A stretch of DNA of 35,158 nucleotides, from sequence record SRR22947727_1910; one strand, given 5' to 3'. The position numbers and the translations under genes are program-made. The notes under the pieces are model-generated. The model was not told the DNA's origin. It did not search any database and saw only the letters and a list, made by a program, of their open reading frames with translations. Of this stretch, positions 124-35,125 are shown piece by piece (positions within the stretch are counted from its first letter, which is position 1; every line of letters starts with the position of its first letter).

Positions 124-734
124 TTGGAAGCAAACATGATTGCACCCTCGAATTCGTCGGCGAGCTTCCGCACGATGCGGAGAATTGATTGCCATGTTCA
201 TCTCGTCGGCGACGGATCTTCCGGTAGCGACTGTTTTATCCAGCTGGATACCCTGTTCCGCAGGATTCAAGCCCGCGTAATGCTTCTCGAAGAAGGCGGG
301 GCCTTGATGTCGCATACGTAGAGACGATCAGAAAGAAAATTGTAGAATCTTCCCTCGATGCCGCTGTTCTTCTGGCTCAGGATTTGCCACACGACGATTC
401 CGGCAAACCCTTGCCGGAGAAAGCAGGGTTTTATGCGTCAAATGATTACCTTTTTGAAGTCGTGGTTCAATCTCCCGACGTGTTTATTCCTGCGATTCCC
501 ATTCATCCAGGACGTCCCGACCCGATGGATGAGTTGGAAAAATGCATCGTGCTCGGGGCACGCGTTTTAAAATTGTTGCCCAACTGTCTTAACGTTGATT
601 GTTCCGCCGAAAAATACCGGCCGTTTTGGGAGCGCGTCGCCGAGGCAGGAATTGTATTTCTTTCCCACACCGGTGGTGAACACACCTTGCCTGTGTTGCG
701 AGCTGAGTTCGCCGAAAGGACTCTATCTGATTGA
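124..734 (+). pseudogene. Amidohydrolase (Amidohydro_2-like) pseudogene, frameshifted and 3'-truncated
   Basis: IDCHVH metal motif in ORF 124..321. Similarity continues in another frame from ~300 (GLDVAYVETIRKKIVESSLDAAVLLAQDLPHD...IHPGR...LKLLP...LSHTGGEH) and ends at ~710, well short of a full TIM barrel. Confidence 0.75.
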
Positions 735-790
735 AATGTATTCAAGCACGAACATCGCAAGGTCGATGAATTAATCTTATTGATTCGAAA
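707..790 (-). repeat. Degenerate copy of the mosaic REP/BIME-like element (locus F)
   Basis: Minus strand reads ttttcgaatcAATAAGAttaattcatc...atgttcgtg...atttcaatcaGATAGAGtcctttcggcgaac. The two core-like heptamers start at 781 and 727, 54 bp apart, as in loci B and C. Confidence 0.5.
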
Positions 791-838
791 ATCATCAATA
801 TGCCGCCGATCGAATCTTGATTGAAGGGCTTCTCCAAA

Positions 839-3811
839 TTAGCCCTGAAGCCTTTTCCAGAGTGCGGGAAGCAAAATCAAAACACTGGCTCCTCCGAAGA
901 GAAGGCCTCCTATCATAACGGCTGCGAACGGCGCCCAGAGTGCGTTTCCGCCAAGTGCGAGAGGCAGTAGGCCAAGGATCGCACAGGCAGATGAAAGCGC
1001 GATCGGGCCGAAACGAGATTGAGCGACAGCGGCGATTTCAGCTCCCGTTTTAGCCTGTTCAGTTCGCAAACGATCGATCAAAACGATGGCGTTATTTACG
1101 ACGATTCCGATCAAGGCAATAAGGCCAAGCAGTTGCATCGTCCCTGAGCCGGAAATCAGGAACATGATGAGAGAAGCTCCCAATAAAGCAGGAATCAGTC
1201 CCAACAAAATGATACCTACACTCCGAATGGTGCGAGTCTGAATCAGCAACAGCAGAAAAATGCCGATCGCCACATAAGCAGCATGTCGCAGAATTTGTTC
1301 ACGCGTTTTCTGTGACTGGGCAAAATCGCCGATGGGTTCCACCGTAAGCGTATCCGTTTCTCTTTTCTGAAAGCGCGTGAGTAGCCGTTGTTCTTCGGTG
1401 ATTGAATTTGAAGTCGTTTGAAATTCGAGATACCCAACATTGGCGCCGTTCCATCGAGAAATGATTGTTGGTGTATCAACCTTTTTGACGGAGGCAACAT
1501 CTTGAAGTGGAATCGGAGAGCCTCCTGACTGGCGATGAACATAGGCTTCCTCTAAACGGTCTTCAGCGTCGGGGTCGTTGCTGGCAACTTTCAGGAGAAT
1601 GGGAAGCCGATTTGCAGTCCCGATTTCGTCTGATAAAAGTGTAACGGGAATGCCTCCCGTTGCGGCAAGCGCGCCGAGAGCAATCTCGGAAGTGGTGATT
1701 TTTTGTTCGGCGGCGCTTTCCAAATCCGGAATCACGGAGATGGCTGAAATCCTTGCAGCTTCATTCACCAAGGCAAAGTCGGCGTCTTTTGCTTTCGCGA
1801 AACCAAGAAAGGAGCTGGATGGTGCGTGCAAGCGGAACGCTACCGGAAATGGATTTGTTGGGGTGGCTGCCAAAGGAGATACCTGTAAAGAGGCGCCTTT
1901 TGGAAGGAGTTTTGCTAGCTTCGTTTCCAATGCAACAATGTGGGGAAATTCCTCAGCAGAAGGGAAGGCCATCGAAAGCGTTGCCTGATTTGCCGACGGA
2001 ATTTGAGGAGTTGTACCCCGGAATACGGTTGGCTGAGGAACATTTAAAAATGTCGCAATAGGATGTGAAAATTCAGATGCGAGCTCTTTTCTAATTTTTT
2101 CGGAACTGGTTCGGGTATCTTCCGGGCTGCTTCCAGCGCCGAGCTTAATATTGATGTCGAGGTGTCTTGTCGGAATCGTCGCCATTGGGGTTTCCGTAGC
2201 CTTCCAAAACGCGGCGCAGGTGATTGCTGAAAAAAGCACAAAGATGACGATGAGTTGTTTTGCTGTTAGTGCTAACGGCGCGCCTTTTCCGAACAGCTTT
2301 TCCGAGAGAAAATTGAGGAAGCGACCTCCTTTGCTGAAATGAGGAGCAAGGGATGGCGTGATCGTAAAGCCAATGATTTGTGAAACGAACAGCAGGGTGC
2401 CAATCACAATAAAGAGACTGGACACATAGCCGGCTGTTTCTCCCTTTAGCAGCCATGCCGGGAGAAATCCGAGGGCTGTTGTCGCCGCAGCTACGATCAA
2501 CGGTGTCGCCAAATCATGCCAACAGCACTGTTGAGGGGTCAATGCTTGAACTGGCTTCTGCAAACGAAGCAAACCAACATGGTGAGTGATGACGATGTGA
2601 TTATCGATCAGCAATCCGATTCCGACAGCCAGCGCCGCGAGGGTTACGATGTTCAGTTCGATTCCAAAAAGGTGAAGTAGAAAGATAGTCCCGAGCAGCG
2701 TCGTAGCGACGGCAATGGCTACGGAAAATCCTGCACGGAGGCCGAGGCCAATGGTCACGCAAATGAGAACGGCCAGAATGCTGAATAAAATGGTCCAGCT
2801 CGAAGCTTGGATGAGATCTGATGTGGTTTCTCCCCGGTAGAAGAATAGCGAAGTGGCGGCATTGGTTTCGGATTCTATTATTTTGCTGATGCTGTTCGAA
2901 AGCGTTTCCCACGTTGCTGATTCTGCCTTGGTGAACGTGATGCCCAGTGCGCGTTGATCGTTTAAAAAGACTTCGCCGAATGCGGGATCTAGCGGTTCGA
3001 CACTGATTTTGCAAACGTCGCTCAGCGGAGTGAGTGAACCATCTCGCGGATCGCGAACGGGGAGGTCACGAAGCGATTCGACATCAGAAATCCCCCGACC
3101 AATATCAAGTGCAAGAAACTGATTCTTGCCTGAAATATAACCGCCGGGAAATTGTTGGCTATTCGCCCGAATGAATTCGGCAAGCTCCGGAGGCGTCAAT
3201 CCGGCGTCAGCGAGGGATTCGTCTTCATATCGAATAACAATCGCGCGGAGCTGATCGTGAGAGATTTCTGCAGTGGCTATGGCAGCGGAAGATCTGAATT
3301 TTTCAATCAATCCCTTCGCTGCCCTGCGAACTTTTTCAAAGTCCGGCTTTTTTCCCACGTTTGCTTCAGTTAGTAAAAGAAACCCTGAAGCCACTTGGCC
3401 AGAGTTCGCTTTTAAATTGGGGCCGATTAGAAGAGGGGCTTCCAATTGAAGTGCGGAGCGAAGTTGCGAAAGGCGGTCTCGAATGATTCCCAGCGTTTCC
3501 TCACGATTCGCTTTTTTAGTAAGCTGGAAACTAACTGCAGAAATTCCATCAGTGGTTTTGGAGCTTACATCTCCAATATTTGGAATCGCATTTAAAACCC
3601 GTTCAACGGGTTGAGTCACCATGCGATCGAGCTTGTCCGGATTCACACCGGAAAAATAAGCGACGATCGATTCGGTCGGGACAATGTCCGGCGGATCAAT
3701 ATCCTGAGGAATCCGCGACAGCGAAAGAATGCCGAGGCCACAAATCAAAAGGGCGATGAAAAACGGAAAACGCATGCAAGACGAATCAACTTTATTGAGT
3801 CTGGAAATCAA
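839..3811 (-). CDS. Divergent AcrB/AcrD/AcrF-family RND permease
   Basis: 990 aa with RND topology; motifs VTQPVERVL, GLLIDNHIV (TM4), GIVVNNAIVLID (TM10), RFGPIALSS, GLLPLA. The TTG start overlaps the upstream stop (TTGA); alternative ATG at 3775. Confidence 0.85.
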   Translation of the reverse strand: MISRLNKVDSSCMRFPFFIALLICGLGILSLSRIPQDIDPPDIVPTESIVAYFSGVNPDKLDRMVTQPVERVLNAIPNIGDVSSKTTDGISAVSFQLTKKANREETLGIIRDRLSQLRSALQLEAPLLIGPNLKANSGQVASGFLLLTEANVGKKPDFEKVRRAAKGLIEKFRSSAAIATAEISHDQLRAIVIRYEDESLADAGLTPPELAEFIRANSQQFPGGYISGKNQFLALDIGRGISDVESLRDLPVRDPRDGSLTPLSDVCKISVEPLDPAFGEVFLNDQRALGITFTKAESATWETLSNSISKIIESETNAATSLFFYRGETTSDLIQASSWTILFSILAVLICVTIGLGLRAGFSVAIAVATTLLGTIFLLHLFGIELNIVTLAALAVGIGLLIDNHIVITHHVGLLRLQKPVQALTPQQCCWHDLATPLIVAAATTALGFLPAWLLKGETAGYVSSLFIVIGTLLFVSQIIGFTITPSLAPHFSKGGRFLNFLSEKLFGKGAPLALTAKQLIVIFVLFSAITCAAFWKATETPMATIPTRHLDINIKLGAGSSPEDTRTSSEKIRKELASEFSHPIATFLNVPQPTVFRGTTPQIPSANQATLSMAFPSAEEFPHIVALETKLAKLLPKGASLQVSPLAATPTNPFPVAFRLHAPSSSFLGFAKAKDADFALVNEAARISAISVIPDLESAAEQKITTSEIALGALAATGGIPVTLLSDEIGTANRLPILLKVASNDPDAEDRLEEAYVHRQSGGSPIPLQDVASVKKVDTPTIISRWNGANVGYLEFQTTSNSITEEQRLLTRFQKRETDTLTVEPIGDFAQSQKTREQILRHAAYVAIGIFLLLLIQTRTIRSVGIILLGLIPALLGASLIMFLISGSGTMQLLGLIALIGIVVNNAIVLIDRLRTEQAKTGAEIAAVAQSRFGPIALSSACAILGLLPLALGGNALWAPFAAVMIGGLLFGGASVLILLPALWKRLQG

Positions 3812-6114: not shown

Positions 6115-6157
6115 GGGGAATTTTGAAAGGCTTTAAAGAATGACGAAAAACACGTTT

Positions 6158-6201
6158 ACGATCAGATAGGGTATGATCGATGAACCAACCCTATTGGGTC
6201 G
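6158..6201. repeat. Palindromic REP-like doublet (locus A)
   Basis: acgatcagATAGGGtatgatc-GAT-gaaccaaCCCTATtgggtcg; overlaps the stop codon of the 6191..8134 gene. Confidence 0.85.
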
Positions 6202-8134
6202 CGTCGGCAGGCTTTTCTGCGATGTAGACGCGGGAAATCCAGGCGTCAGGCGTGTCGTAGCTTTTCTGCGTTACCGAAAAATGAAGGTCGTCGAGTGATG
6301 GCATTCCTTCGATCGCATCGGCTACATCAGCTTCTTTGTCGCTTGATGCTCCAGACTGCGCACGAACCTGAATGCCTTCTTCCGTTCCATAGACTCCCAT
6401 TTTAATGAGCGTCGCCAAATCTTCGTAGCCAAATTCGACCATGTTCTCATCACCCCATTTGCGCCACGATTCGCGAACAGTTTCGTGATCTTCGAGACTG
6501 GAGGTGCCTTTTTTGAGGCTTGCGATGACATGATTCATCCACTCTTTCTCTCCCACAGTAAGAATCAACTTGTCACCAACGATTGCGTAAGCTCCTGATG
6601 AATCCTGCCCGACTGAAACCATCGGTCCGAGAATCCTTGTGAGTGAATCTGCATCAACGATCGATTCCCCCATAAAATCACGTGGTTCGCCAATTTCTCC
6701 GCCACCCATCGGCGAGCTTTGGAGAAATCCCATCAATTCAGACATGGTCGTTTTCATCCCAATCGGATCGTTGGTGTTTAGAATAATCGCATGACTTGGA
6801 ACCTGATCTTTCGCAGGGTTCGGGGTCGCGTAGCCGTAAAATGAGGTTACCCCTGAATCGAGTACTGGAAGCATTTTAGTGCGGACATTCATGCCCTGAC
6901 CTTCGAGAGTTCCCATCTGCATTTGTAGCATCCCACCGAGCATCGGCGATAGCTTCGGGATTTCTGCCAGCAACTCTTCGATACTCTCAGCGGTATCATA
7001 TCCGCTGATCGTAATTCCTTTGAGCCCTGCCGGATCCATTTCGGGAAGCACAATGCCCTGTTCGTAATTCAACATTTTTGCAAGCATTCCGGTTCGCTCG
7101 TTGGTCGCAAGCTCCTGAACAATTTCAATTCCGTCGTCCTGAACCTTCGCCGCCATGGTGAAACGTTTGAAATTTTTCAGTCCAAGAAAATCGATCAGTG
7201 CATCTTTCTGAACAAACATCCCAATCGGCAAGCCGCCCTGGCCCGCAGCGGCATCGGCCGTGGCTTTGTCGTAGAATTCAGAAACTGAAGTTTCCATCGC
7301 AGAGGCGATGTCGTCGAGCGGTGCGAAGACAAACAAATCAGCTTCTTCAAGTTGGTCGCGGGCATCAATGTAGCTTCGACTTCCTGCGAGTGAATCGGGT
7401 TCAGCCCCTTGAGCTCGAATTCGACGCGCCATGTCAGAAGCGATATGATCGGCCATGTCAGCTTTGTTGTCTGACATCGGTGCGACGATGAGCATTGAAT
7501 CGGCGAGAATAAATCCCGTGTTTACCCAGCTTTCCGTTCCATCCTCAGCGACATTCTTGATTTCCATCCGAGTCATCGGATAGCCTTCAAATGTGTCCTG
7601 AAAGGAGCGGGAGTCGTGCATGTCTTCGCTGGAATCGACCATCCGCTTTCCAAGAGCCGCAACGAGCTCGGTCAATTCGGCCTCGGTGAGAGTGGTGTCC
7701 GCAGCCGCGAGAAAAGAGATTCCCTTCATGTTCAACCCAACATTGGCAGCGCCGCCGGGCGTTCCTCCGAGGGGGGGTATGCTGGCATCCATCAGCATCG
7801 AAAAATTTAAGTTTCCTGCCATTGCAAACCGGGCAGGAAAAAGTCGGGCAAGCTCTTCTTTCGTCAGTCCAATTTCCTTCAGCGTCTCTTCAGAAAGCAA
7901 TTCGTCAATCCAGCTGAAGGACTCGCCATAAAGGTGGGTAATTGCGGGGTGTCTCACAATTTTGTTAAATGCGTGATCTTCATCTAATTCGTAGAATTTA
8001 CTCAGATTTTGAACCACAGCCAAAGCGGAAGTGTTATCGGGAAGCAGCGTGCCGATGTCTTGATCGGACTGGGCGCGGGACGAAATTACCGGCACTGCCA
8101 GGGCAATAGCGATTGGAAGAAAGTGGCTTTTCAT
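6191..8134 (-). CDS. Exported hypothetical protein, DUF3352-like
   Basis: ATG 8134 gives a signal peptide (MKSHFLPIAIALAV...SRA) followed by LLPDNTSALAVVQN, typical of DUF3352-like N-termini; 647 aa. Family call is tentative. Confidence 0.6.
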   Translation of the reverse strand: MKSHFLPIAIALAVPVISSRAQSDQDIGTLLPDNTSALAVVQNLSKFYELDEDHAFNKIVRHPAITHLYGESFSWIDELLSEETLKEIGLTKEELARLFPARFAMAGNLNFSMLMDASIPPLGGTPGGAANVGLNMKGISFLAAADTTLTEAELTELVAALGKRMVDSSEDMHDSRSFQDTFEGYPMTRMEIKNVAEDGTESWVNTGFILADSMLIVAPMSDNKADMADHIASDMARRIRAQGAEPDSLAGSRSYIDARDQLEEADLFVFAPLDDIASAMETSVSEFYDKATADAAAGQGGLPIGMFVQKDALIDFLGLKNFKRFTMAAKVQDDGIEIVQELATNERTGMLAKMLNYEQGIVLPEMDPAGLKGITISGYDTAESIEELLAEIPKLSPMLGGMLQMQMGTLEGQGMNVRTKMLPVLDSGVTSFYGYATPNPAKDQVPSHAIILNTNDPIGMKTTMSELMGFLQSSPMGGGEIGEPRDFMGESIVDADSLTRILGPMVSVGQDSSGAYAIVGDKLILTVGEKEWMNHVIASLKKGTSSLEDHETVRESWRKWGDENMVEFGYEDLATLIKMGVYGTEEGIQVRAQSGASSDKEADVADAIEGMPSLDDLHFSVTQKSYDTPDAWISRVYIAEKPADATQ

Positions 8135-8192
8135 AGTTCTAGGAAAATGGGTGAATATATGAGAAATGGAGGTGTGAAATATAGGGGTACGC

Positions 8193-9170: not shown

Positions 9171-9260
9171 TTGGTAGTGTTTCGTGCTTGGTCAGGCACA
9201 CGAGAGTGGGAAAAGCGTCACTCCCATTTCGATTCGCCTAAAATTATAATAGTGGGGTGA

Positions 9261-9692
9261 TTACCAGTTACCAACGTCGTCTTCATTCCCCGCTATCATG
9301 TCAGGTCCCATCGAGAAAACATCTTGTCCTGATGAGTTGCGCGAACCGGGGTTTTTATACTGATAAGGTTGGCCCCATGAATCGATGAGTGCTTCAGGCC
9401 CTGTGCTTTGAGTCCACCGCTTTGGTTTTGGCGGCGCCGTAGGGGGCTCAACCAGTGCTTTCAATCCTTGTTCGGTGGTAGGGAAGAATCCTGCTTTCGC
9501 TTTGTAGCGTACTAAATTGGTTTCCAGGCTCCGAACATCCGCCCGCGCTTTGTCGACATCAGCGTCTGACAAAACATTTTTCATCGCGAACGCGCCGAGT
9601 CCCACGAGAAGCGAAATGATCGCCAAAACCAGCACCATTTCCATCAGGGTGAATCCACCGCTTGCCCTTCTGTTCGTCGTCACCATTTTCAT
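9261..9692 (-). CDS. gspG: Type II secretion major pseudopilin GspG
   Basis: G|FTLME prepilin cleavage site, FPTTEQGLKALV, DSWGQPYQYKNPG, SMGPD...DDVGNW. Confidence 0.93.
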   Translation of the reverse strand: MKMVTTNRRASGGFTLMEMVLVLAIISLLVGLGAFAMKNVLSDADVDKARADVRSLETNLVRYKAKAGFFPTTEQGLKALVEPPTAPPKPKRWTQSTGPEALIDSWGQPYQYKNPGSRNSSGQDVFSMGPDMIAGNEDDVGNW

Positions 9693-12399: not shown

Positions 12400-12670
12400 G
12401 ATCGGCTATGGTGAAGGTGGCAAAGGTGATGAGGGCGAAAATGATCAGACCAAATTTGACCATAAAGACATCAACGTTTGTTGGAGTTTTGAGGCGTCGG
12501 ATTAAAAAAATGGCGATGGTAAAGGTGTGGACGAAACCGCTGATAAACAAAACGAAAAACGACAACTGATCGAGAGGCAGCAGCCACGCGAGGAGGAAAA
12601 AGACGACGGCTGCGGTGATGAATGCCGTTCGCCATAGTTTTTTCCATTCGGCTGGTTCTTCGTTTTTCAC
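12383..12670 (-). CDS. Small hypothetical membrane protein (about 3 TM)
   Basis: 95 aa with three hydrophobic segments; fills the gap between ridA and the D-TA gene. Confidence 0.55.
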   Translation of the reverse strand: MKNEEPAEWKKLWRTAFITAAVVFFLLAWLLPLDQLSFFVLFISGFVHTFTIAIFLIRRLKTPTNVDVFMVKFGLIIFALITFATFTIADHAIPE

Positions 12671-12765
12671 GATCCATTAGGGTTGGTTCGATGAATCATA
12701 GGATGCGTTCGTGGGAGCATTTCGAAGCAATAGGGTCTGTTCGATGAACAAACCCTATTGCTTCG
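12664..12765 (+). repeat. Mosaic REP/BIME-like element (locus B): two tandem halves plus a near-perfect palindrome
   Basis: Core heptamers at 12676, 12697 and 12729 (spacing 21, 32). 12723-12765 is cgaagcaatagggtctgttc-GAT-gaacaaaccctattgcttcg, 20-bp arms with one mismatch. Confidence 0.9.
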
Positions 12766-12774
12766 GAAAATCGG

Positions 12775-18655: not shown

Positions 18656-19864
18656 CTATTTGATCACGAAAACCCCGTCCTCATTAGGGGCTGCGACAAG
18701 GGCGATGTCTTCGTTATTTTCATCTACCACCACCCAAAAGTGTCCTTCGTAGGTTCCTTGAGTAGTCGAGCGATTCGGATCGATATGACCGTGAGCGCGG
18801 CGTTTTCCTTCAAATGTGACCCAAAATAGCCGCATTGTTTCAGAAGTTTGATTTTGAAATTTCAGCTGAACTCCCTCGCCGCCAGGAGGTGACGCGAAGC
18901 TGTGATTGTTCAAATTTTTCAAATTGAGAGACGCTACAGATTTTAAGCCTTCTCCTTTTTCCAGCGCAGCGTAGGCCGCGACGAGCTCCGTGGGCCACGC
19001 AAACGTAGGTGCTGTTTTTGGATCGTAGCCAACCAAATGCGGAGCACCCTTTTCCCGTTCGGGTGGTCGTTGGTAGCGCCATACTCCATCGCCAAAAACT
19101 TCCTCGCAAAGCGCGGCAAGGCCCTTGTCGTGGGCTTTCAATTCTTCGCGGGTATTCACGTGATTGTGATCGTGATCGTCTTCACGATTGGTATCGAACC
19201 ACGACTGAACTCCTTCGGCCCAGTATTCTGCCGGATTTGTTCCCGCGTATTTTCCTTTCCAAAGTCCCTTCAAAACCGCGCGTTGAAAGTTGTTTTCCAA
19301 TCGTTTCTGAAAAGTCGGATCCGTCTTTTTTAAGCCCTGCTGATGAATGCTGTGGGCAAATTCATGGATGAAAATATTCTCTTTGGCATAAGGATCGCCG
19401 ACATAGCCAAGCAGATTTTCTTCACCGCAGCTCACGGCGGGTCGCTCGGGTGTTGAGCCGAGTCCACGAGCGCGTTTGTCCCAATAATTTTTCGGAGTCA
19501 AACTGAAATGCTCAGGAATAGCAGTGGTGAACTCGTCCGGCGCCATGATGGAAAATCGAATTTTCGCATCCGTTAGGGCTTCCAACAAATCTGGCCGATC
19601 TCCGACCATTTGAAGGATCAAAAATTCGGCTTCTTTCAGGGCAAAATCCGAGACCTTATCGGACGCCACAACGGGGAATCCATTCACGCTTAAGTATTTT
19701 TTGTAAAACGAGGTATCAAGCTCAAGCCGCTCGATTTCTGCCTGCGGTGGAGCCGTTACATCACCGGCATTCGCAAGACCTGTCACCACGAAGCAACAGG
19801 GTATGAATAGCGAACGAACAGGGTACGTTCGTAAGAGCTTTTCGATCCAATAGGGTTGGTTCAT
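18656..19864 (-). CDS. Zinc metallopeptidase-like protein (HEFAH...EYWAE) with C-terminal VHL-beta-like domain
   Basis: HExxH plus downstream Glu (gluzincin-like); C-terminal FQNQTSETMRLFWVTFEG...TYEGHFWVV. Start uncertain because the N-terminus lies in a repeat array. Confidence 0.75.
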   Translation of the reverse strand: MNQPYWIEKLLRTYPVRSLFIPCCFVVTGLANAGDVTAPPQAEIERLELDTSFYKKYLSVNGFPVVASDKVSDFALKEAEFLILQMVGDRPDLLEALTDAKIRFSIMAPDEFTTAIPEHFSLTPKNYWDKRARGLGSTPERPAVSCGEENLLGYVGDPYAKENIFIHEFAHSIHQQGLKKTDPTFQKRLENNFQRAVLKGLWKGKYAGTNPAEYWAEGVQSWFDTNREDDHDHNHVNTREELKAHDKGLAALCEEVFGDGVWRYQRPPEREKGAPHLVGYDPKTAPTFAWPTELVAAYAALEKGEGLKSVASLNLKNLNNHSFASPPGGEGVQLKFQNQTSETMRLFWVTFEGKRRAHGHIDPNRSTTQGTYEGHFWVVVDENNEDIALVAAPNEDGVFVIK

Positions 19865-19892
19865 CAAATCAATAGGGTATGTTCGGTAGAGC
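19787..19892 (+). repeat. Tandem array of four repeat halves (locus C), two 54-bp-period units
   Basis: AAYAGGG cores at 19795, 19817, 19849 and 19871 (spacing 22, 32, 22); both units end in AGAGC. Confidence 0.85.
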
Positions 19893-25228: not shown

Positions 25229-25278
25229 TTTTCACGATCCAACAGGGTCCGTTTATCGAACTTACCCTATTCGATCGT
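25229..25278. repeat. Palindromic REP-like doublet (locus D)
   Basis: ttttcacgatccAACAGGGtccgttt-ATC-gaacttaCCCTATTcgatcgt between convergent genes. Confidence 0.85.
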
Positions 25279-25287
25279 TAAAAGTCT

Positions 25288-27081: not shown

Positions 27082-27159
27082 GGTCGGAATAAAAATGGTC
27101 GCCGAATGGCGGGTCGAATCAAGCGGCGAAGGGGCCATTTGTGTCATGGATAGTTTTAG

Positions 27160-27222
27160 GTGCGAAATTTTTAGCACTTATTTTCTTGACCAAATTCAGG
27201 GGACGTGCGAAAAAATTAGCAT
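27160..27222. promoter_or_regulatory. Twin 18-bp palindromic operators flanking a TTGACC -35 (putative BlaI sites)
   Basis: GTGCGAAATTTTTAGCAC (27160-27177) and GTGCGAAAAAATTAGCAT (27205-27222); TTGACC at 27186. Confidence 0.75.
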
Positions 27223-29956: not shown

Positions 29957-29966
29957 ATTCCAGCGG

Positions 29967-30012
29967 CACGGATCGACAGGGCTGATTCGATGAACAGACC
30001 CTGTTGTTTCGT
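29967..30012. repeat. Palindromic REP-like doublet (locus E)
   Basis: cacggatcGACAGGGctgattc-GAT-gaacagaCCCTGTTgtttcgt. Confidence 0.8.
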
Positions 30013-30100
30013 TAAAATGCGTTTTATCGGATCAGGCAAAATCTGTGCATTCCACATTCGCGGTATTGCTTCGCTTGCGAAAATTCGGCACGCTTTGTTA

Positions 30101-30937
30101 ATGAAAAAACTGATTCCCATTTTTGTGGCTTTGGCCGTTGCATTGACTTCCGCGCAGGGCGGTGAGTGGAAAACGCTCTTTGATGGAAAATCTCTCGATG
30201 GCTGGAAAGGGCTTGATTTCTGGAGTGTGAAAGACGGAACGATTTTTGGTGAAACGACGGAAGCGAAGCCGACCAAGGGAAACACGTTTCTGATTCTTCA
30301 GGACGAAGTGGTGACTGATTTTGAGTTCACTTGCCAGGTGAAATTCGGCGGGAATAATTCGGGCGTGATGTATCGGTCGAACACTGTCGATGAAGCGAAT
30401 TTTGTGATGGCTGGTTATCAGGCTGACCTTCACCCAAAAGCTGAGTATTTTGGAATGCTTTACGGCGAGAAATTTGGCAAACGCGGGATCGTTGCTCAGC
30501 GTGGTCAGCGAGTCGTCACGAAGGCAGATGGATCGAAAGCAGTTGTCAACGCGATTGGTGATGACGCAAAACTGGTCGATACGGAGTGGAATGAATTGCG
30601 TGTCGTGGCCGTTGGAGATCGCATTCTACATTTTGTGAACGGCCAGATCACAATGGACCTCACCGAGAATCACCCGGACGCGATTGCCAAAGGCCAGATT
30701 GGTCTTCAGCTCCATGCTGGCCCTGCGATGTGGGTGAATTTTAAGGATCTGAAGCTACGTCACCTCGAAGGCGACGAAGCAAAGGCAGTGCTTGCTGAAG
30801 GAGTTGCTATTTCTGACAAGTCCGCGAAACCAGCACCAAAACCGATCCCCGCAAAAGGTAAGGGGAAGGGCAAAGGAAAAGCAGGGAAGAAAGCGGCTGC
30901 AGCGCCGGCTCAAAAAAAAACGACACAGCGTGGCTGA
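30101..30937 (+). CDS. DUF1080 (3-keto-disaccharide hydrolase-like) domain; probably the 5' part of a frameshifted fusion
   Basis: Signal peptide, LFDGKSLDGW, NSGVMYR, GYQAD, WNE, GQIGLQLH, FKDL; K/G/A-rich linker ending at an A9 run. Confidence 0.88.
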   Translation: MKKLIPIFVALAVALTSAQGGEWKTLFDGKSLDGWKGLDFWSVKDGTIFGETTEAKPTKGNTFLILQDEVVTDFEFTCQVKFGGNNSGVMYRSNTVDEANFVMAGYQADLHPKAEYFGMLYGEKFGKRGIVAQRGQRVVTKADGSKAVVNAIGDDAKLVDTEWNELRVVAVGDRILHFVNGQITMDLTENHPDAIAKGQIGLQLHAGPAMWVNFKDLKLRHLEGDEAKAVLAEGVAISDKSAKPAPKPIPAKGKGKGKGKAGKKAAAAPAQKKTTQRG

Positions 30938-33915
30938 AGTCGGGTGAGAAGCCACAGTGGATTTGGAATGAAAGAAATGCCGGGAAGAAACTTTGGCTGC
31001 GTCATGAGTTTGAGATTCCCGCTGACGTAAAGTCGGCGACGATTTACGCGACTTGCGACAACGGTGCGACGTTGTTCCTGAACGGCGAGAAAATCGGCGA
31101 ATGCCCCGATTGGTATTTTCCGATTCATCGCAGCGGATTGGAAAAGTTGCTTAAAAAGGGTACCAATACGATTGCCGCTTCAGCAACCAACGAGGGTGAC
31201 GTTGCTGCATTCATCCTTCGATTGGATATCGAAACCACTGACGGTAAGAAACTGACCGTCACGTCGAAGGCCGCCGGTTGGAAAGGCACAAATACAAAGC
31301 CTGCTGATGGTTGGGAAAAAGCGGGATTCGATAGTCCCGCGTGGAGTGAAAAACTGAAATCGTTTGGCGAAATCGGCATCGGTCCGTGGGGAATTCCAAA
31401 TGGCACGAAAGGTAGCGGGGGAGGTCGTACGCCACAGAAAAAAAGTCCGATCGAATCGGAAGACATCACGGTTGCAGAGGGCTTCAAGGTCGAGTTGCTC
31501 TATACCGTTCCCCGAGACGAACAGGGCTCGTGGGTATCGCTAACGAAAGATCCGAAGGGCCGATTTTATTCCTGCGATCAGGGAAAACAGGGGCTTTTTC
31601 GCATTACTGTTAGTGGTGCCGAAACTGAGGTTGAAAAAATTGAACTTGATGGTTTAAGCGGTGCGCAAGGTTTGGAATGGGCATTCGGTGGATTGTATTT
31701 CAACAAAAATGGCGGCGTTCTCTACAAGCTGACGGATTCCGATGGTGACGACAAATTGGACAAAATCGAAGAGCTGCCGAATGGAACGGGGGGCGGCGAG
31801 CATGGCAATCACGCGGTCACGCTCACGCCGGATGGCAAGGGGCTTTTTCTTGATGGGGGAAACCACGCACCAATACCGCCGGAAGAATCGATTACGCGGA
31901 AACGAGTGCAGTCGTGGGATGAGGATTTGCTGCTTCCCCGCCAATGGGATGCACGCGGTCATGCGCGCGGGAAGCTTGCGCCGGGCGGCTGGGTTTCGCG
32001 TTTTGACCCCGAAGCAAAAACGCACGATATCATTTCGACCGGTTATCGAAATCAGTATGACGTCGCCCTAAATTCTATGGGTGATTTGTTTACCTATGAC
32101 GCAGACATGGAGTGGGATCTCGGCATGCCGTGGTACCGCCCGACGCGGATCAATTTCGTGGTGAGCGGTTCCGATTACGGCTGGCGCTCAGGTTCAGGAA
32201 AATGGCCAAGCTACTACGAAGACTCGCTGCCGCCCGTTGTTGAGATCGGCCCCGGCTGCCCGACCGGAGTTGTCACGGGAGTCAGGACAAAATTCCCGAC
32301 GAAATATCAGGAAGCGATCTACGCGCTCGATTGGACCTTTGGCACGATTTACGTGATTCATCTCGAAGCAGACGGCGCTGGTTACAAAGGAAAAGCTGAG
32401 CCGTGGGTTTATGGATCGCCGCTTCCGGTTACCGATGCGGAAATCGGGGATGATGGGAATTTCTATTTTCTGATCGGTGGACGGAATACGCAGTCGGCGT
32501 TCTATCGGGTGAGTTATGTGGGAGACACTAAAACCGCATCAATCAAAGTGACATCTGCTAGTGACGCAGTGAATACGAGAAACGCGTTGGAAGTATTCCA
32601 CGGTGTCGAAGATACCAAAGCCGTCGAAGAAGCTTGGCCATATCTCTCAAGTGAAGACCGTTTTCTCCGCCACGCCGCCCGTGTCGCGATCGAATCACAA
32701 CCAGTCGATCAATGGGCTGAGCAAGTTGTAACAGAATCAGATCCACAGGCCAAAATCACTGCAGCCGTTGCGCTCGCGAGGATGGGTGACTCCGAAAAAC
32801 ACCGAGCTGGGCTGACGGCTGCCTTGGTTTCTCTTGATTCGGATAAACTAACGGCTCCACAGCTTCTCGGACTGCTTCGTGCTTACGCTCTGGATTTCAT
32901 CCGGCTCGGAAAGCCAACTCGCACGGAAACTGCGCAAATCATCTCGGAGCTTGATCCGCTTTTACCTTCGGAAAATAATGATGTGAACACCGAGTTGATT
33001 CGTGTTCTCACCTATCTCGAAGCACCGAGCGTGGTTCCGAAAACGATGAAGCTCATTACGGAGCGAGGCGAAACCGAAGTTCCTGATTGGACCGAGCTAG
33101 CAAGCCGAAACCCAAGTTACGGTGGCACCATTTTGAAGGTGCTCGAAAATCATCCGCCGTCTCGCGAGATCAATTATGCCTTCATGCTGCGTAATACCCG
33201 CAGGGGCTGGACAACGGAAACGCGCCGTCAGTATTTCGAGTTTTTGAACGAAGCCGCGAAGTTTTCGGGTGGCGCGAGTTATCCCGGTTTCCTTGCCAAC
33301 ATCCGCACTGAAGCCCTCGGAAATTGCAGCGATGCCGACCGAGCCGCGGTTGCAGAAATCACCGGCGAAGATTTCAATCCCAAGCCTGATTTTGAAATCA
33401 AACAGCCCGTCGGCCCCGGTCGGGTATGGACTCTCGCGGAAGCAAACGCCGAAATTGGGAATCGCGGAAAAGGCCGCAGTTTCGAAAGAGGACGGAATTT
33501 GTTTCACGCCACCGCTTGTGCGGCCTGCCATCGTTTCGACGGACTCGGCGGAGCGATTGGACCAGATCTCACGAGTGTGAAAAACAAGTTCGATCGGAAA
33601 TATCTCATCGAATCTATTATCGATCCGAGCAAAACTATTTCCGACCAATACGGCTCTTCAATGGTGACGCTGAAGAACGGCAAGGCCCATACCGGCCTCG
33701 CGGTTGAGAACGGCGAGGACTTCGCGATTTACCCACCTGACGCGACTGCCGAGCCGATCAAAGTCAAAACCGCTGAGGTGGCCAAAGTCGATCAAGTCCC
33801 GGTTTCGCAAATGCCACCGGGCCTGATCAATACGCTGAATCCCGAAGAACTTGCAGATCTCGTCGCCTACCTCATGAGCGGTGGCGATGCGAATAACAAG
33901 GCTTTCAAGGAGTGA
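30919..33915 (+). CDS. PVC-type haem-c membrane-bound dehydrogenase-like protein (beta-sandwich, propeller, HEAT, CxxCH); 3' part of the fusion
   Basis: Frame is open from the A9 run (QWIW...ATCDNG..LFLNG); GFKVELLY, EHGNH, GYRNQYD, DMEWD, CAACH, GPDLT, SQMP. Confidence 0.85.
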   Translation, partial: NDTAWLKSGEKPQWIWNERNAGKKLWLRHEFEIPADVKSATIYATCDNGATLFLNGEKIGECPDWYFPIHRSGLEKLLKKGTNTIAASATNEGDVAAFILRLDIETTDGKKLTVTSKAAGWKGTNTKPADGWEKAGFDSPAWSEKLKSFGEIGIGPWGIPNGTKGSGGGRTPQKKSPIESEDITVAEGFKVELLYTVPRDEQGSWVSLTKDPKGRFYSCDQGKQGLFRITVSGAETEVEKIELDGLSGAQGLEWAFGGLYFNKNGGVLYKLTDSDGDDKLDKIEELPNGTGGGEHGNHAVTLTPDGKGLFLDGGNHAPIPPEESITRKRVQSWDEDLLLPRQWDARGHARGKLAPGGWVSRFDPEAKTHDIISTGYRNQYDVALNSMGDLFTYDADMEWDLGMPWYRPTRINFVVSGSDYGWRSGSGKWPSYYEDSLPPVVEIGPGCPTGVVTGVRTKFPTKYQEAIYALDWTFGTIYVIHLEADGAGYKGKAEPWVYGSPLPVTDAEIGDDGNFYFLIGGRNTQSAFYRVSYVGDTKTASIKVTSASDAVNTRNALEVFHGVEDTKAVEEAWPYLSSEDRFLRHAARVAIESQPVDQWAEQVVTESDPQAKITAAVALARMGDSEKHRAGLTAALVSLDSDKLTAPQLLGLLRAYALDFIRLGKPTRTETAQIISELDPLLPSENNDVNTELIRVLTYLEAPSVVPKTMKLITERGETEVPDWTELASRNPSYGGTILKVLENHPPSREINYAFMLRNTRRGWTTETRRQYFEFLNEAAKFSGGASYPGFLANIRTEALGNCSDADRAAVAEITGEDFNPKPDFEIKQPVGPGRVWTLAEANAEIGNRGKGRSFERGRNLFHATACAACHRFDGLGGAIGPDLTSVKNKFDRKYLIESIIDPSKTISDQYGSSMVTLKNGKAHTGLAVENGEDFAIYPPDATAEPIKVKTAEVAKVDQVPVSQMPPGLINTLNPEELADLVAYLMSGGDANNKAFKE

Positions 33916-35062
33916 TTCCAAACTCCGACAGCTCAATCGTCTGAAATATCATGTCGGCCCGCGAGGATTCGTAGAGAATTCCGAGCGTGTCATCATCCAC
34001 CATTACGAGGGAGCTGTAGGCTCCGCCTTTTTCATCGAGCAGGATTTTTTTATCGTCCGGCCAAGTTTTTCCATCGTCAAAACTGACCCGCACGGTCATT
34101 TTTGCGCGCTTTGTTTTACTGTTCGGATTCGAGAAGAATAAAACCCGCTTGCCGTCTTTCAGCGTGTGACTGATCAGGCTAGCCATGCAGACCGGTTCGG
34201 GTAACGCGCCGTGATCCGACGCATGGACCGTCCAATTCTTTCCAAAATCGGAGGTAATACGAACCGCTCGACCATTCGTTTCCGATTTGTCTGAACGATT
34301 TCGATTGTCCCGAATGTTAAGCATCAGCGAACCATCGCTCAGTTCGGCGACGGCACACTCCGAGGTGTTTCGCGTCGCCGCAGTCGAAAGCGTCCACGTT
34401 TTTCCGTGATCTTTACTCCACATTAAATTCGAAAACGGCTCCCCTTTCTCGTCCCGCCCCTGTGTCGGCATCACCAGGGTGCCGTCTTTCAGCGCAATGC
34501 CATTCCCCGGAGCAGGGGCAAAAAGATACCACTTCGGATCTTTCAAACGCTTCGTCCAATTCTCCGTTTTCGACCACGTCTTCCCCTCATCATTTGATCG
34601 CACCATCATGAACTGTGTCGATTTTTCAATCTCGTGTCCCGGTCCCGATCCATTCCCGCGCCATTGATGCGTATCCGGCTTTCCATGCGTCCACAAGGCC
34701 GAAACGATGATCTCTCCTGTCGCTGGATCGACCAAAATATTTGGATCCGAGCATCCGTTTAAATCCTGGCCAAGCCCGCCGAATTCACCCATGTCCATGA
34801 TTGCGCAGGGCGCTACCCACGTCTTTCCGCCGTCTGTAGAGCGCGAAAGCCCAATGTCCATGTGCCCCTGCAAATCACGTCTGCTGGTGTAACGCATATC
34901 ATAAGTCGCCAGTAAAGTTCCGTCATTGGTTCGAGCAATCGCCGGAATCCGAAAGGTGTGGCAATCGGCATCGCCTTGTTTGTGAATAACGACGAACGGG
35001 CGCTCTTCAGCGAAGGCTGAACCAAAAAGAGAAATAAAAATCGAGAAGAACAAGAATTTCAT
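33905..35062 (-). CDS. Exo-alpha-sialidase (GH33)
   Basis: FRIP motif, Asp boxes (STDGGKTW, SNDEGKTW, SKDHGKTW, SFDDGKTW), AYSSL, ILYE; signal peptide. Confidence 0.93.
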   Translation of the reverse strand: MKFLFFSIFISLFGSAFAEERPFVVIHKQGDADCHTFRIPAIARTNDGTLLATYDMRYTSRRDLQGHMDIGLSRSTDGGKTWVAPCAIMDMGEFGGLGQDLNGCSDPNILVDPATGEIIVSALWTHGKPDTHQWRGNGSGPGHEIEKSTQFMMVRSNDEGKTWSKTENWTKRLKDPKWYLFAPAPGNGIALKDGTLVMPTQGRDEKGEPFSNLMWSKDHGKTWTLSTAATRNTSECAVAELSDGSLMLNIRDNRNRSDKSETNGRAVRITSDFGKNWTVHASDHGALPEPVCMASLISHTLKDGKRVLFFSNPNSKTKRAKMTVRVSFDDGKTWPDDKKILLDEKGGAYSSLVMVDDDTLGILYESSRADMIFQTIELSEFGITP

Positions 35063-35105
35063 GGAAAGACAAAATGAGCCATCTCATTGATTTTATCCAG
35101 ATCCA

Positions 35106-35125
35106 TTTTCACGAACCAACAGGGC
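35106..35125 (+). repeat. Single half-copy of the dispersed repeat (locus G)
   Basis: ttttcacgaaccAACAGGGc matches ttttcacgatccaacagggt of locus D at 18 of 20 positions. Confidence 0.6.

What the first reader, a model, noticed from the sequence alone, without database searches (positions are those of the whole stretch)
707..35125. Dispersed mosaic palindromic repeat family (REP/BIME-like) at seven loci
Seen: a ~22-nt half-unit (CACGAWSSAAYAGGGTHHGTTC) at ~707-790, 6158-6201, 12664-12765, 19787-19892, 25229-25278, 29967-30012 and 35106-35125. It forms inverted doublets with a 3-nt GAT/ATC centre, and tandem halves with fixed spacing. Copies lie between tandem, convergent and divergent genes, which argues against a simple operator. 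Known: gammaproteobacterial REPs/BIMEs are organised this way and are associated with RAYT (TnpA-REP, HUH) nucleases. Inference: an abundant REP-like family in a PVC bacterium that I do not recognise; the mobilising enzyme is not in this window.
Basis: partly seen in the sequence, partly recalled or inferred. Interest (0 to 1): 0.85.

Follow-up and report, generated by a model that had tools for sequence, protein, structure and literature searches.

The report
Evenly spaced 22-bp mosaic repeats
A marine Verrucomicrobiales genome carries about a thousand evenly spaced, mostly intergenic repeat sites built from one 22-base module; they behave like long-conserved protein-recognition signals rather than like hairpin relics of a transposon.

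Summary
The module ACGAnnnAAYAGGGTnnGTTCG occurs about 2,185 times at 1,025 loci in the 5.97-Mb draft genome, against 10 hits in a reversed-genome control.

The RAYT and hairpin mechanism is not supported.
- The only Y1 transposase gene is broken and is flanked by a different repeat.
- Neither the doublet arms nor the module halves covary.
- Real doublets fold no better than doublets with swapped arms.

New facts:
- Module centres lie exactly 22 bp (81%) or 32 bp (16%) apart, in any orientation.
- Loci are far more evenly spaced than chance (CV 0.57 against 0.87-0.95), and this repeats in two other genomes.
- About 15 of 16 occupied intergenic sites are shared with a congener whose proteins are only about 75% identical.
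- Three genera carry dialects with complementary changes in the two arms.
- About 90 loci lie in frame inside real genes, including dnaE, cysS and der. In 5 of 5 checked they replace a variable linker with 0 to +3 residues.

Best reading (0.35): cooperative duplex-DNA protein-binding sites that organise the chromosome. Main rival (0.25): a DNA-uptake-signal-like system. No binding protein was identified.

The parts
713..792 (-). Decayed array: two degenerate units (713-738 at 12.7 bits, 767-792 at 20.1 bits), 54 nt apart start to start (= 22 + 32)
   Evidence: matrix scan of the window; sequence
3782..3807 (-). Marginal single unit (11.1 bits) at the junction of ORFs 839-3811 and 3808-6114; doubtful member
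6154..6206 (.). Head-to-head doublet (+ unit 6154-6179 at 26.4 bits, - unit 6181-6206 at 24.5 bits). The TAG of its CAATAGGGT is the stop codon of ORF 6191-8311 (-). The doublet is present at the orthologous site in G001 and G002.
12665..12770 (.). Four-unit locus: + unit 12665-12690 (31.8 bits), a decayed + unit about 12687-12709 with a 1-nt loss, + unit 12718-12743 (31.0 bits), - unit 12745-12770 (31.8 bits). It includes a 32-type linker and ends about 6 nt from the stop codon of ORF 12775-13257 (-). G001 has units at the orthologous site in a different arrangement.
   Evidence: (D4)
19784..19885 (+). Four direct units (19784, 19806, 19838 and 19860; 18.2-35.2 bits) at spacings of 22, 32 and 22. 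They have no hairpin potential (z -0.13 and -1.6). G001 has three units at the orthologous site.
25230..25282 (.). Head-to-head doublet (31.5 and 31.4 bits) between the convergent ORFs 24545-25189 (+) and 25288-27177 (-). It was not found at the corresponding place in G001 or G002, where synteny differs.
29964..30016 (.). Head-to-head doublet (weak + arm at 13.9 bits, - arm at 31.1 bits) starting about 10 nt after the stop codon of ORF 27626-29956 (+). It is present at the orthologous site in G001 (doublet) and G002 (one unit).
35107..35132 (+). Truncated single unit: TTTCACGAACCAACAGGG, then unrelated sequence (7.6 bits). It lies upstream of ORF 33905-35062 (-).

Best explanation
Each 21-bp quasi-palindromic module (CGAnnnAAYAGGGTnnGTTCG, ancestrally CGAACCAAC-AGG-GTTGGTTCG) is a recognition site read on double-stranded DNA by a sequence-specific protein, probably a dimer. 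Modules sit exactly two or three helical turns apart (22 or 32 bp centre to centre) in either orientation. Neighbouring bound proteins would therefore lie on one face of the helix and bind cooperatively.

About a thousand such loci, one every 5 kb or so, are kept in place by selection. They sit mostly in the free DNA just after stop codons, and inside long genes where a linker tolerates them. They would act as regularly spaced anchors or barriers of the chromosome: bridging points, topological-domain limits or insulators between transcription units.

Shown here: the anatomy, the lattice, the even spacing, the vertical conservation, the absence of any hairpin constraint, the dialects and the in-place origin of coding copies. 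Inferred: the protein, the cooperativity and the chromosomal role.
For: 1. Position-specific conservation without structure.
- In 256 doublets found through their flanks alone (0 in the reversed control), core positions that were not required are 78-98% conserved. Positions -4 to -2 and +7 to +8 are near free.
- The two arms of 593 doublets are complementary exactly as often as independence predicts, and less often at the nn positions: 0.23 and 0.20 against 0.31.
- The same holds for the two halves of one module over 2,185 units.
- Real doublets fold no better than doublets with arms swapped between loci: mean -18.3 against -18.5 to -18.8 kcal/mol, Mann-Whitney P = 0.29.
- 483 of 1,025 loci have no head-to-head pair at all. 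The direct array in the window does not fold (z -0.13 and -1.6).

2. At consensus level the two arms change together between genera. The symmetric positions -4 and +10 read A..T in g1, T..A in g27 and C..G in g2, while AACAGGGT and the spacing stay the same. This fits a dimer whose half-site preference changed.

3. Lattice. Centre-to-centre distance is 22 in 936 and 32 in 184 of 1,160 neighbour pairs, whatever the orientation.

4. Even spacing.
- G000: 859 intervals, CV 0.57 against 0.95 (uniform) and 0.87 (random intergenic; lowest of 200 runs 0.78). 7% are under 1.5 kb against 20-25%. The largest gap is 23 kb.
- Repeated in G001 (CV 0.47) and G031 (CV 0.55), with 0 of 2,000 simulations as low in either.

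5. Vertical retention.
- Of 112 syntenic gene pairs between G000 and G001, units lie in both at 13, in one only at 3, and in neither at 96.
- On inspection, 2 of the 3 one-sided cases are shared.
- Orthologous units keep the core (0.88 identity) while variable positions have largely diverged: 0.58 against 0.43 for random pairs, P about 0.0006.
- The surrounding intergenic DNA barely aligns.
- 800 of 1,025 loci hold two or more units. The paired state is kept in both species, as expected if pairs are needed.

6. No transcription logic. Loci split into tandem 480, divergent 165 and convergent 159, as all intergenic regions do (2,666, 733 and 728). Orientation bias is weak.
Against: - No binding protein was identified. 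No gene family is flanked by units in a telling way, and a ComEA-like paralogue gave no clean phyletic match.
- The family is patchy. It is abundant in 2 of 30 sampled genera, sparse in one, and at control level in the rest. A 400-kb sample of a non-carrier genus shows no analogous repeat. Copy number varies about 7-fold within genus g27. That is odd for a basic chromosomal function.
- Most doublets can still form a stable hairpin (median -18.5 kcal/mol; z about -9.5 to -9.9 on the two strands of one window copy). They also hug stop codons as REPs do (median 13 nt). An RNA role for the doublet class is therefore not excluded.
- The 32-bp linker is semi-conserved in sequence, as in a recombinational mosaic.
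- Every feature listed above except the retained pairs and the lattice fits the uptake-signal rival equally well.
- The gene calls are my own crude ORF calls on a 229-contig draft.
Confidence: 0.35

Rival explanations
1. A DNA-uptake-signal-like system. The module is the preferred substrate of a DNA-uptake or self-recognition receptor. Copies accumulate and are renewed in place through biased uptake plus homologous recombination (molecular drive or selection), as with DUS in Neisseria and USS in Pasteurellaceae.
For: The family shares the published hallmarks of DUS and USS.
- Spacing is regular and has been linked to conversion-tract size; copies are highly conserved within permissive, fast-evolving DNA; close inverted pairs lie behind genes (PMC2397512, abstract and passages).
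- Coding copies sit at poorly conserved residues in preferred reading frames (PMC2817400, abstract).

What is seen here:
- Even spacing and orthologous retention.
- Inverted pairs 0-15 nt behind stop codons.
- About 90 in-frame coding loci, roughly half of the long ones read as T-N-Q-Q-G-x-F-D-E-P-T-L-L-D-R.
- In 5 of 5 host genes checked, the element replaces a variable linker with 0 to +3 residues instead of adding about 15.
- Genus dialects, and a shift at orthologous units from C to T in G000: 8 of 12, none the reverse.
- No identical copies, so no sign of copy-and-paste bursts.
- ComEC, DprA and three secreted ComEA-like proteins are encoded.
Against: - Known uptake signals are 9-12-bp asymmetric cores used singly, with 35-65% of copies in genes (PMC2817400 outline table). 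This is a 21-bp quasi-palindrome. At least 85% of its loci are intergenic, and 78% of loci hold two or more units on a strict lattice.
- One DUS is enough for uptake (PMC2397512), so drive alone should let second units decay. Both units are kept across species.
- The competence genes found are present in 10-11 of 14 control genomes and do not discriminate.
- As far as I recall, competence has not been shown in Verrucomicrobia.
Confidence: 0.25
2. An old selfish REP/BIME-like family. An ancestral mobiliser, now lost or unrecognised, spread the doublets, perhaps with target immunity that kept copies apart. The loci have since been immobile and change only through local slippage and inversion.
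For: - The layout is BIME-like: units, linkers and head-to-head dimers.
- Heterodimer preference: the same nn dinucleotide occurs in both arms 43 times against 98.8 expected. Di Nocera et al. report the same for many REP families (PMC3733652 passages).
- Taxonomic distribution is patchy and copy number variable.
- Unit number and orientation differ between orthologous loci, for example +--- against +-, and ++ against --.
- REP families without any transposase are described (the CGTC type). Intragenic REPs in replication and repair genes, and REP-supplied TAG stops, are also described (PMC3733652). Both are seen here: dnaE twice, a DUF3686 ATPase, and 26 genes that stop at the unit's TAG.
- At the same sites as in-frame copies, G031 Hsp70 carries +16 residues and G001 WaaA a long extra stretch. 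These look like true insertions.
Against: - Neutral relics should decay evenly. Instead the core is 78-98% conserved and other positions are free, and this holds across species whose proteins are only about 75% identical.
- No compensatory change keeps any hairpin.
- In 5 of 5 G000 coding copies there is no gain of about 15 residues.
- The absence of large gaps is not explained by immunity alone: the maximum is 23 kb, against my own estimate of about 35 kb for a random process, which comes from no call.
- No RAYT link and no gene family flanked by units.
Confidence: 0.2
3. An RNA-level element. Transcribed doublets form 3' hairpins that stabilise upstream mRNA, stop transcription, or stall ribosomes at nearby stop codons, as shown for some E. 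coli REPs (recalled, not read here).
For: - Doublets lie 0-15 nt after stop codons in 189 of 480 tandem contexts, and the nearer stop codon is a median of 6 nt away in convergent contexts.
- Hairpins can be strong (-31.8 and -33.5 kcal/mol, z about -9.5 to -9.9; median -18.5).
- Contigs from two RNA libraries contain repeat copies with other flanks (table 7). This is weak, because DNA carry-over is not excluded.
Against: - 165 loci lie between divergent genes, exactly the share expected by chance.
- 47% of loci have no inverted pair, and direct arrays do not fold.
- There is no arm covariation and no folding advantage of the true partners.
- No T-run follows the hairpin, and none of the 26 terminator-like sites in 20 kb coincides with an element.
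- Orientation is nearly free.
- There is no Rfam match.
Confidence: 0.08

Closest known systems
REP / BIME elements with RAYT (TnpA-REP), including REPINs
   Same: High copy number, largely extragenic, 20-40-nt units. Head-to-head dimers prevail. The mosaic has fixed linkers, lies close to stop codons and is lineage-specific.
   Different: No GTAG tag. No compensatory stem conservation. No RAYT gene flanked by units. No identical master copies. Direct-orientation arrays are common. Spacing is even. Loci are vertically stable.
CGTC-tagged REPs (Di Nocera et al. 2013, PMC3733652; abstract and passages read)
   Same: Similar size class (8-9-bp arms, 4-5-nt centre). Head-to-head dimers predominate. 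No associated transposase. Intragenic copies occur, some in replication and repair genes.
   Different: The defining terminal CGTC and the CCA tail are absent. The unit ends are (A)CGA and TCG(T). The stems of that family are described as real stem-loops, whereas pairing here is not maintained. I did not see the paper's figures or supplements.
DNA uptake sequences (DUS of Neisseriaceae, USS of Pasteurellaceae)
   Same: Over-represented on both strands and regularly spaced. Conserved at orthologous sites inside permissive DNA. Inverted pairs lie behind genes. Coding copies arise by substitution at poorly conserved residues in preferred frames. Dialects differ between related taxa (literature).
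   Different: The unit is 21-22 bp and quasi-palindromic, not a 9-12-bp core. Multi-unit loci sit on a 22/32-bp lattice. At least 85% of loci are intergenic. Density is about 1 locus per 5.8 kb (1,025 loci in 5.97 Mb), against about 1 per 1.1-1.2 kb as I recall for DUS and USS. Uptake bias is untested.
Rickettsia palindromic elements (RPE), in-frame repeat insertions in proteins
   Same: Repeat-encoded peptides lie in frame inside functional, conserved proteins: an Hsp70 paralogue, DnaE, CysRS, Der/EngA, GlpD and WaaA.
   Different: RPEs add residues (recalled; PMC3733652 speaks of inserts encoding 20-30 amino acids). In 5 of 5 G000 cases the element replaces an existing variable segment with 0 to +3 residues.

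Membership tests
REP/REPIN mobilised by RAYT | The unit is an imperfect palindrome whose stem is kept by compensatory change | tested here: not met
   Complementarity equals the independence expectation between arms (593 doublets) and within units (2,185 units). Swapped-arm chimeras fold as well as real doublets (P = 0.29).
REP/REPIN mobilised by RAYT | Conserved GTAG tetranucleotide at one end of the unit | tested here: not met
   The unit profile has ACGA and GTTCG ends. The only TAG lies in AATAGGGT, is preceded by A, and is present in 904 of 2,185 units.
REP/REPIN mobilised by RAYT | A Y1/HUH transposase gene (PF01797) flanked by the repeats in the same genome | tested here: not met
   G000 has one match, with an internal TAA stop and other inverted repeats as flanks. 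G002 has only 25.7 bits. G001 has six matches, none directly flanked by units. The genome is 95.6% complete, so an unassembled copy cannot be excluded.
REP/REPIN mobilised by RAYT | Many extragenic copies, with head-to-head dimers prevalent | tested here: met
   1,025 loci; 605 head-to-head neighbour pairs (593 at the exact 28-nt offset) in 542 loci; at least 85% of loci lie outside called ORFs.
BIME (bacterial interspersed mosaic element) | Mosaic of units in alternating orientation joined by a few fixed linker motifs | tested here: inconclusive
   Junction lengths are fixed (22 or 32 bp centre to centre in 1,120 of 1,160 pairs) and the long linker is semi-conserved. However, 437 of the neighbour pairs are direct rather than alternating.
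CGTC-type REP superfamily | Terminal CGTC tag not involved in pairing, plus a short CCA-like tail | tested here: not met
   The unit profile shows no such ends. GTC or GAC occurs only as a centre variant, in 113 of 593 doublets.
DNA uptake signal sequences (DUS/USS) | Strong over-representation on both strands with more even spacing than chance | tested here: met
   2,185 units against 10 in the control. CV 0.57 against 0.87-0.95. Repeated in G001 and G031.
DNA uptake signal sequences (DUS/USS) | Copies conserved at orthologous positions; coding copies made by substitution at permissive residues | tested here: met
   13 (15 after inspection) of 16 occupied syntenic sites are shared. 5 of 5 coding copies show 0 to +3 residues against outgroup genera.
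DNA uptake signal sequences (DUS/USS) | Short asymmetric core acting as a single unit, with a large share of copies inside genes | tested here: not met
   The unit is a 21-bp quasi-palindrome. 78% of loci hold two or more units on a lattice. Only 158 of 1,025 loci lie inside called ORFs.
DNA uptake signal sequences (DUS/USS) | Competent cells preferentially take up DNA that carries the motif | not testable with these tools
   The organism is known only as metagenome-assembled genomes. ComEC, DprA and ComEA-like genes are present but do not discriminate.
Rickettsia-type palindromic elements in proteins (RPE) | In-frame insertion that adds repeat-encoded residues to the host protein | tested here: not met
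   The Hsp70 paralogue, CysRS, Der, WaaA and GlpD of G000 show 0 to +3 residues at the element. G031 Hsp70 (+16) and G001 WaaA (long extra stretch) do show added length at the same sites.

The most novel reading that the evidence does not exclude
These modules are the first DNA-uptake or self-recognition signal found outside the Proteobacteria: a 21-bp, dimer-read signal in marine Verrucomicrobiales. It would accumulate in place by biased uptake and recombination. It is spaced every 5-10 kb, has genus-specific dialects, and is strong enough to rewrite linkers of essential proteins such as DnaE, CysRS and Der.
Probability: 0.25. Interest if true: 0.9.

Novelty: new variant of a known kind. Interest (0 to 1): 0.75.

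Why it matters
Dispersed short repeats in bacteria are usually filed either as selfish hairpin elements (REP/RAYT, MITEs) or as uptake signals, which are known from two proteobacterial families. This family combines a REP/BIME-like layout with the evolutionary behaviour of a selected or driven recognition signal:
- even spacing;
- a strict helical-turn lattice;
- position-specific conservation with no structural covariation;
- arm dialects that change symmetrically between genera;
- vertical retention across deep species splits;
- in-place rewriting of protein linkers.

It therefore gives a concrete case in an uncultured marine PVC lineage for two open questions. What maintains REP-like families that lack a transposase? 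Do regularly spaced protein-binding signals, for chromosome organisation or for DNA uptake, exist beyond the known model groups? The sequence logic also makes clear, cheap predictions for a pull-down or DAP-seq experiment.

Tried and rejected
- RAYT link: rejected.
- REPtron-like genes flanked on both sides by loci: 48 genes, with no recurring small family.
- Promoter or operator: rejected, because loci lie between convergent genes at the chance rate.
- Intrinsic terminator: there is no T-run (TTTT lies 5' and AAAA 3' on both strands), and no overlap with the 26 terminator-like sites in 5500-25499.
- Rfam at gathering threshold: 0 matches in the window.
- IHF-type consensus and the Verrucomicrobia LexA box: compared from memory only. 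The spacing is off by one base in each case. The LexA paper is not held, and searches gave only a citation. Neither was pursued.
- ComEA-like paralogue as a receptor candidate: a full-length match exists only in g1 and not in g27, and the domain is present in non-carriers. Uninformative.
- Sequencing runs: all runs are contigs. RNA-library contigs are short and none bridges a window locus. DNA contigs break at the repeats. One 10.7-kb contig of a roughly 99%-identical strain spans 12112-20912 with no indel. No conclusion on expression or on population dynamics.
- Largest inter-locus gaps: GC content is normal. Their gene content was not examined.
- A non-carrier genus (G032, 400 kb): no analogous hyper-abundant 10-mer.
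Not done.
- The search of earlier findings: nothing held for this genome or this sequence.
- Literature: searches with 'Verrucomicrobia' plus 'repetitive extragenic palindromic' (6 papers) and 'Verrucomicrobia' plus 'intergenic' plus 'palindromic repeat' (16 papers) listed no description of this family. These searches are narrow and prove little.
- Two slips of mine: a pattern with 14 instead of 15 N (corrected) and a regex with 14 instead of 13 free bases (corrected).
Full report
**Observation**

None of 100 dinucleotide-preserving shuffles gave a match. Reading the seven named places and scanning the window with a genome-trained matrix gives five strong loci:
- 6154-6206;
- 12665-12770;
- 19784-19885;
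- 25230-25282;
- 29964-30016.

There is also a decayed array at 713-792 and one truncated unit at 35107-35132. The 3-nt centre, the tandem units and the mixed gene contexts are as described.

**Genome-wide count**

The window lies in a 5.97-Mb draft of 229 contigs with 51% GC. CAATAGGGT occurs 523 times and CAACAGGGT 586 times. A profile around all 1,919 AYAGGGT sites gives this consensus: tTTtACGAaccAAYAGGGTnnGTTCG-a/t-c/t-GAACnnACCCTRTTggtTCGtaaaa.

An iterated 26-column matrix finds 2,185 units at 12 bits, against 10 in the reversed (not complemented) genome. At 16 bits the figures are 2,038 and 2. The units form 1,025 loci: 225 with one unit, 583 with two, 75 with three, 141 with four and 1 with five.

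**Anatomy**

Offsets between neighbouring units are almost invariant:
- head-to-head: 28 nt in 593 of 605;
- direct: 22 nt (328) or 32 nt (89) of 437;
- tail-to-tail: 26 nt (93) or 16 nt (15) of 118.

Take the unit as the 21-bp quasi-palindrome CGAnnnAAYAGGGTnnGTTCG, centred on the first G of GGG. All of these offsets then reduce to a centre-to-centre distance of 22 bp (936 of 1,160 pairs) or 32 bp (184), in any orientation. Only 40 pairs differ. The extra 10-11 nt of the long junction are semi-conserved (TTCGaaA.GgC.TTTCGA).

With Y = C the unit reads CGAACCAAC-AGG-GTTGGTTCG, which is 9-bp arms around an asymmetric but conserved AGG.

Doublets are asymmetric:
- The centre is ATC (166), GAT (149), GAC (66) or GTC (47), with others rarer.
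- The two arms carry the same nn dinucleotide only 43 times, against 98.8 expected.

**No structural constraint**

- Between the arms of 593 doublets, Watson-Crick pairing at each variable position equals the product of the column frequencies. Examples are Y/R at 0.47 against 0.49, and nnn at 0.55, 0.48 and 0.52 against 0.47, 0.46 and 0.52. At nn it is lower, 0.23 and 0.20 against 0.31.
- Within the unit, the eight possible pairs likewise show no covariation. Mutual information is at most 0.021, and only neighbouring bases depend on each other.
- Real doublets fold at a mean of -18.3 kcal/mol. Chimeras with arms swapped between loci fold at -18.5 to -18.8 (P = 0.29).
- Window copies range from -33.5 kcal/mol (z about -9.5) to -17.2 (z -1.5). 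The direct array does not fold.
- Doublets found through their flanks alone (256, against 0 in the control) still show 78-98% conservation at the core, which was not required for detection. Positions -4 to -2 and +7 to +8 are close to free. The uneven conservation is therefore not an artefact of how copies were found.

**Context**

I made crude gene calls of my own: 4,356 ORFs covering 87% of the genome. With them:
- 158 loci lie at least 30 nt inside an ORF. Many of these are near over-extended starts.
- The rest lie between tandem (480), divergent (165) or convergent (159) genes, and 63 lie at contig edges.
- This is the same split as for all intergenic regions (2,666, 733 and 728).
- Orientation relative to transcription is only mildly biased, for example -- 58 against ++ 39.
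- Loci hug stop codons. The median is 13 nt after the upstream stop in tandem contexts, and 189 of 480 lie within 0-15 nt.
- 64 genes end inside a unit, 26 of them at the TAG of AATAGGGT.
- There is no T-run behind the doublets, and none of the 26 terminator-like sites in 5500-25499 coincides with one.
- Rfam gives nothing.

**Transposase test**

- PF01797 (Y1_Tnp) finds one place in this genome. It has an internal TAA stop and is flanked by a different long inverted repeat.
- The congener G002 has the most units but only a 25.7-bit fragment.
- G001 has six Y1 genes. The matrix finds units near two of them.
- In L011 the gene is directly flanked by the other repeat family. The two doublets nearby belong to a duplicated gene start.
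- No gene family is recurrently flanked by loci.
- No two of the 593 doublets are identical. Nearest neighbours differ at 3-6 of 45 positions.

**Distribution**

Record titles of the nearest MiaB loci place the organism in uncultured Verrucomicrobiales. None of those 80 loci (327 kb) holds a unit above 15.5 bits.

The strict pattern occurs 677, 281 and 738 times in the three genomes of the genus. It does not occur in 27 of the 28 other genomes sampled from the family and order; the 28th, G008, has 2.

With two mismatches allowed, over 61 genomes of the family:
- A second genus, g27, is also a carrier: 1,014, 779, 335 and 154 hits, against controls of 2-4.
- Genus g2 shows a small excess: 25-41 hits, against controls of 1-16.
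- The other genera are at control level.

The doublet AAYAGGGT-N15-ACCCTRTT confirms this. G064 has 479, G031 159, G068 40, G044 10 and G059 1, with controls of 0-1.

The dialects differ in the arms but not in the core or the lattice:
- g1: CGA(A/T)..GTTCG.
- g27: CGAT..GATCG, mostly as direct 22-bp arrays.
- g2: (C/T)GAC..GGTC or GGTG (listed matches).

The symmetric positions -4 and +10 thus read A..T, T..A and C..G. A 400-kb sample of a non-carrier genus shows no analogous repeat.

**Vertical inheritance**

Congeners are only 71-77% identical in coding DNA. Even so:
- Window loci at 6154, 12665, 19784 and 29964 have units at the orthologous place in G001, and two of them also in G002.
- The locus at 25230 does not.
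- G001 and G002 share a doublet upstream of miaB that G000 lacks.

For a systematic test I compared 400 kb of G001 with G000. This gave 112 syntenic neighbouring gene pairs. Units lie in both genomes at 13, in G000 only at 2, in G001 only at 1, and in neither at 96. Independence predicts about 2 shared (15 x 14 / 112, computed by hand).

Inspection shows that one one-sided case is a cut-off artefact and one is a decayed relic. So 15 of 16 occupied sites are ancestral.

The 12 unit pairs with the same architecture are 0.88 identical at core positions. At free positions they are 0.58 identical, against 0.43 for random pairs (P about 0.0006). The flanking intergenic DNA hardly aligns. Unit number and orientation sometimes differ between the species, for example +--- against +-, and ++ against --. 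In 8 of the 12 pairs G000 has AAT where G001 has AAC, and never the reverse.

**Even spacing**

- The 859 intervals within contigs have a mean of 5.2 kb, a median of 4.8 kb and a CV of 0.57.
- Uniform placement gives 0.95. Random choice of intergenic regions gives 0.87, with a minimum of 0.78 in 200 runs.
- Only 7% of intervals are under 1.5 kb, against 20-25% expected. The largest gap is 23 kb.
- G001 (50 loci, CV 0.47) and G031 (38 loci, CV 0.55) show the same, with 0 of 2,000 simulations as low in either. G000 and G001 share loci by descent and are not independent.
- Large gaps have normal GC content.

**Copies inside genes**

Ninety loci lie at least 200 nt from the start and at least 100 nt from the end of a called ORF. 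Fifty of these span 43 nt or more. By my hand count of the list, at least 26 of the 50 are read in one frame as T-N/I-Q-Q-G-x-F-D-E-P-T-L-L-D-R.

Fifteen host ORFs were scanned against Pfam. They include an Hsp70 paralogue, two DnaE-type polymerases, Der/EngA, CysRS, GlpD, WaaA and a DUF3686 AAA ATPase.

The rate per 100 kb rises with gene length from 0.9 to 4.6, on small numbers.

Alignment with orthologues from other genera shows that the element occupies a variable linker without the 15-residue gain an insertion would give:

| Host protein | Length change at the element |
|---|---|
| Hsp70 paralogue | 0 |
| CysRS | +2 in G000, 0 in G001 |
| Der/EngA | +3 |
| WaaA | no longer than the outgroups |
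| GlpD | +1; the element overlies a conserved PC.T..L.L motif |

Alignments to solved structures place the CysRS and Der copies in gapped linker regions.

Against this, G031 Hsp70 has +16 residues and G001 WaaA a long extra stretch at the same sites.

**Interpretation**

The layout is REP/BIME-like. The behaviour is that of a recognition signal read on duplex DNA:
- Conservation is position-specific and the positions vary independently.
- Arm changes between genera are symmetric, yet single copies show no covariation. That is what a dimer imposes and a hairpin does not.
- The lattice spans two or three helical turns.
- Loci are retained across deep splits.
- Spacing is even.
- Coding copies arise in place.

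I favour cooperative binding sites with a chromosome-organising or barrier role (0.35). The reason is that pairs and arrays are retained across species and the lattice is strict.

The uptake-signal reading (0.25) matches the published behaviour of DUS and USS point by point (PMC2397512 abstract and passages; PMC2817400 abstract). The uptake core genes are present. But the unit is long, palindromic, multimeric and almost entirely intergenic.

An old selfish family that lost its mobiliser (0.20) explains the mosaic, the patchiness and the two insertion-like cases. It does not explain the selective pattern of conservation.

A purely RNA role (0.08) fails for divergent contexts and for direct arrays.

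Di Nocera et al. (PMC3733652, abstract and passages) describe transposase-less CGTC REPs, intragenic REPs in replication and repair genes, heterodimer preference and REP-supplied TAG stops. Those traits are therefore not new in themselves.

**Limits**

- The genome is a draft and the gene calls are my own.
- Only 400-kb samples of three other genomes were analysed.
- No protein was identified.
- No raw reads were available.
- The core against accessory test was not completed.

Noticed in passing
L001 about 1340-1500 and 1940-2060 (G000:C171); L011 about 1360-1440 and 1880-1960 (G001:C31): A second, unrelated long inverted-repeat family directly flanks Y1/IS200-like transposase genes (broken in G000, intact in G001). 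The arrangement resembles the TIR-flanked tyrosine transposases described in PMC3733652.
   Followed up: partly
whole genome G000: The palindromic 8-mer TTTCGAAA is 9.5-fold over-represented (787 against 83 expected). 765 of the 787 copies lie outside the repeat loci. Unexplained.
   Followed up: partly
whole genome G000 against G001, G002 and G031: The Y of AAYAGGGT is T in 45% of G000 units but C in 85-91% of G001 and G031 sites. At 8 of 12 orthologous units G000 has T where G001 has C, and never the reverse. This is a lineage-wide parallel C-to-T shift, and it creates a TAG in one frame.
   Followed up: partly
window 28787-29763: Three direct repeats of about 40 nt, 555 and 345 nt apart, lie inside the BlaR1/M56-like ORF 27626-29956 (D3 and D7). 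They are probably internal protein repeats.
   Followed up: no
window 22772-23641 and 23788-24282: Two adjacent ORFs both match iodothyronine-deiodinase-like and AhpC/TSA families. The second is shorter (164 aa) and matches only part of the profile.
   Followed up: no
L280, L281, L282 (G000:C178, C97, C226): There are three small secreted ComEA-like helix-hairpin-helix proteins. The L282 one has full-length relatives only within the genus.
   Followed up: partly
L204 (G031 Hsp70 paralogue) and L305 (G001 WaaA): At the same linker sites where G000 carries in-frame repeat copies without added length, these relatives carry extra residues (+16, and a long stretch) that include repeat-like peptides.
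   Followed up: partly
window 1-62 and 28825-35158: Only window places 63-28824 map to contig C11 of the held assembly. The rest lies off that contig, so the window spans more than one contig of the held draft.
   Followed up: no
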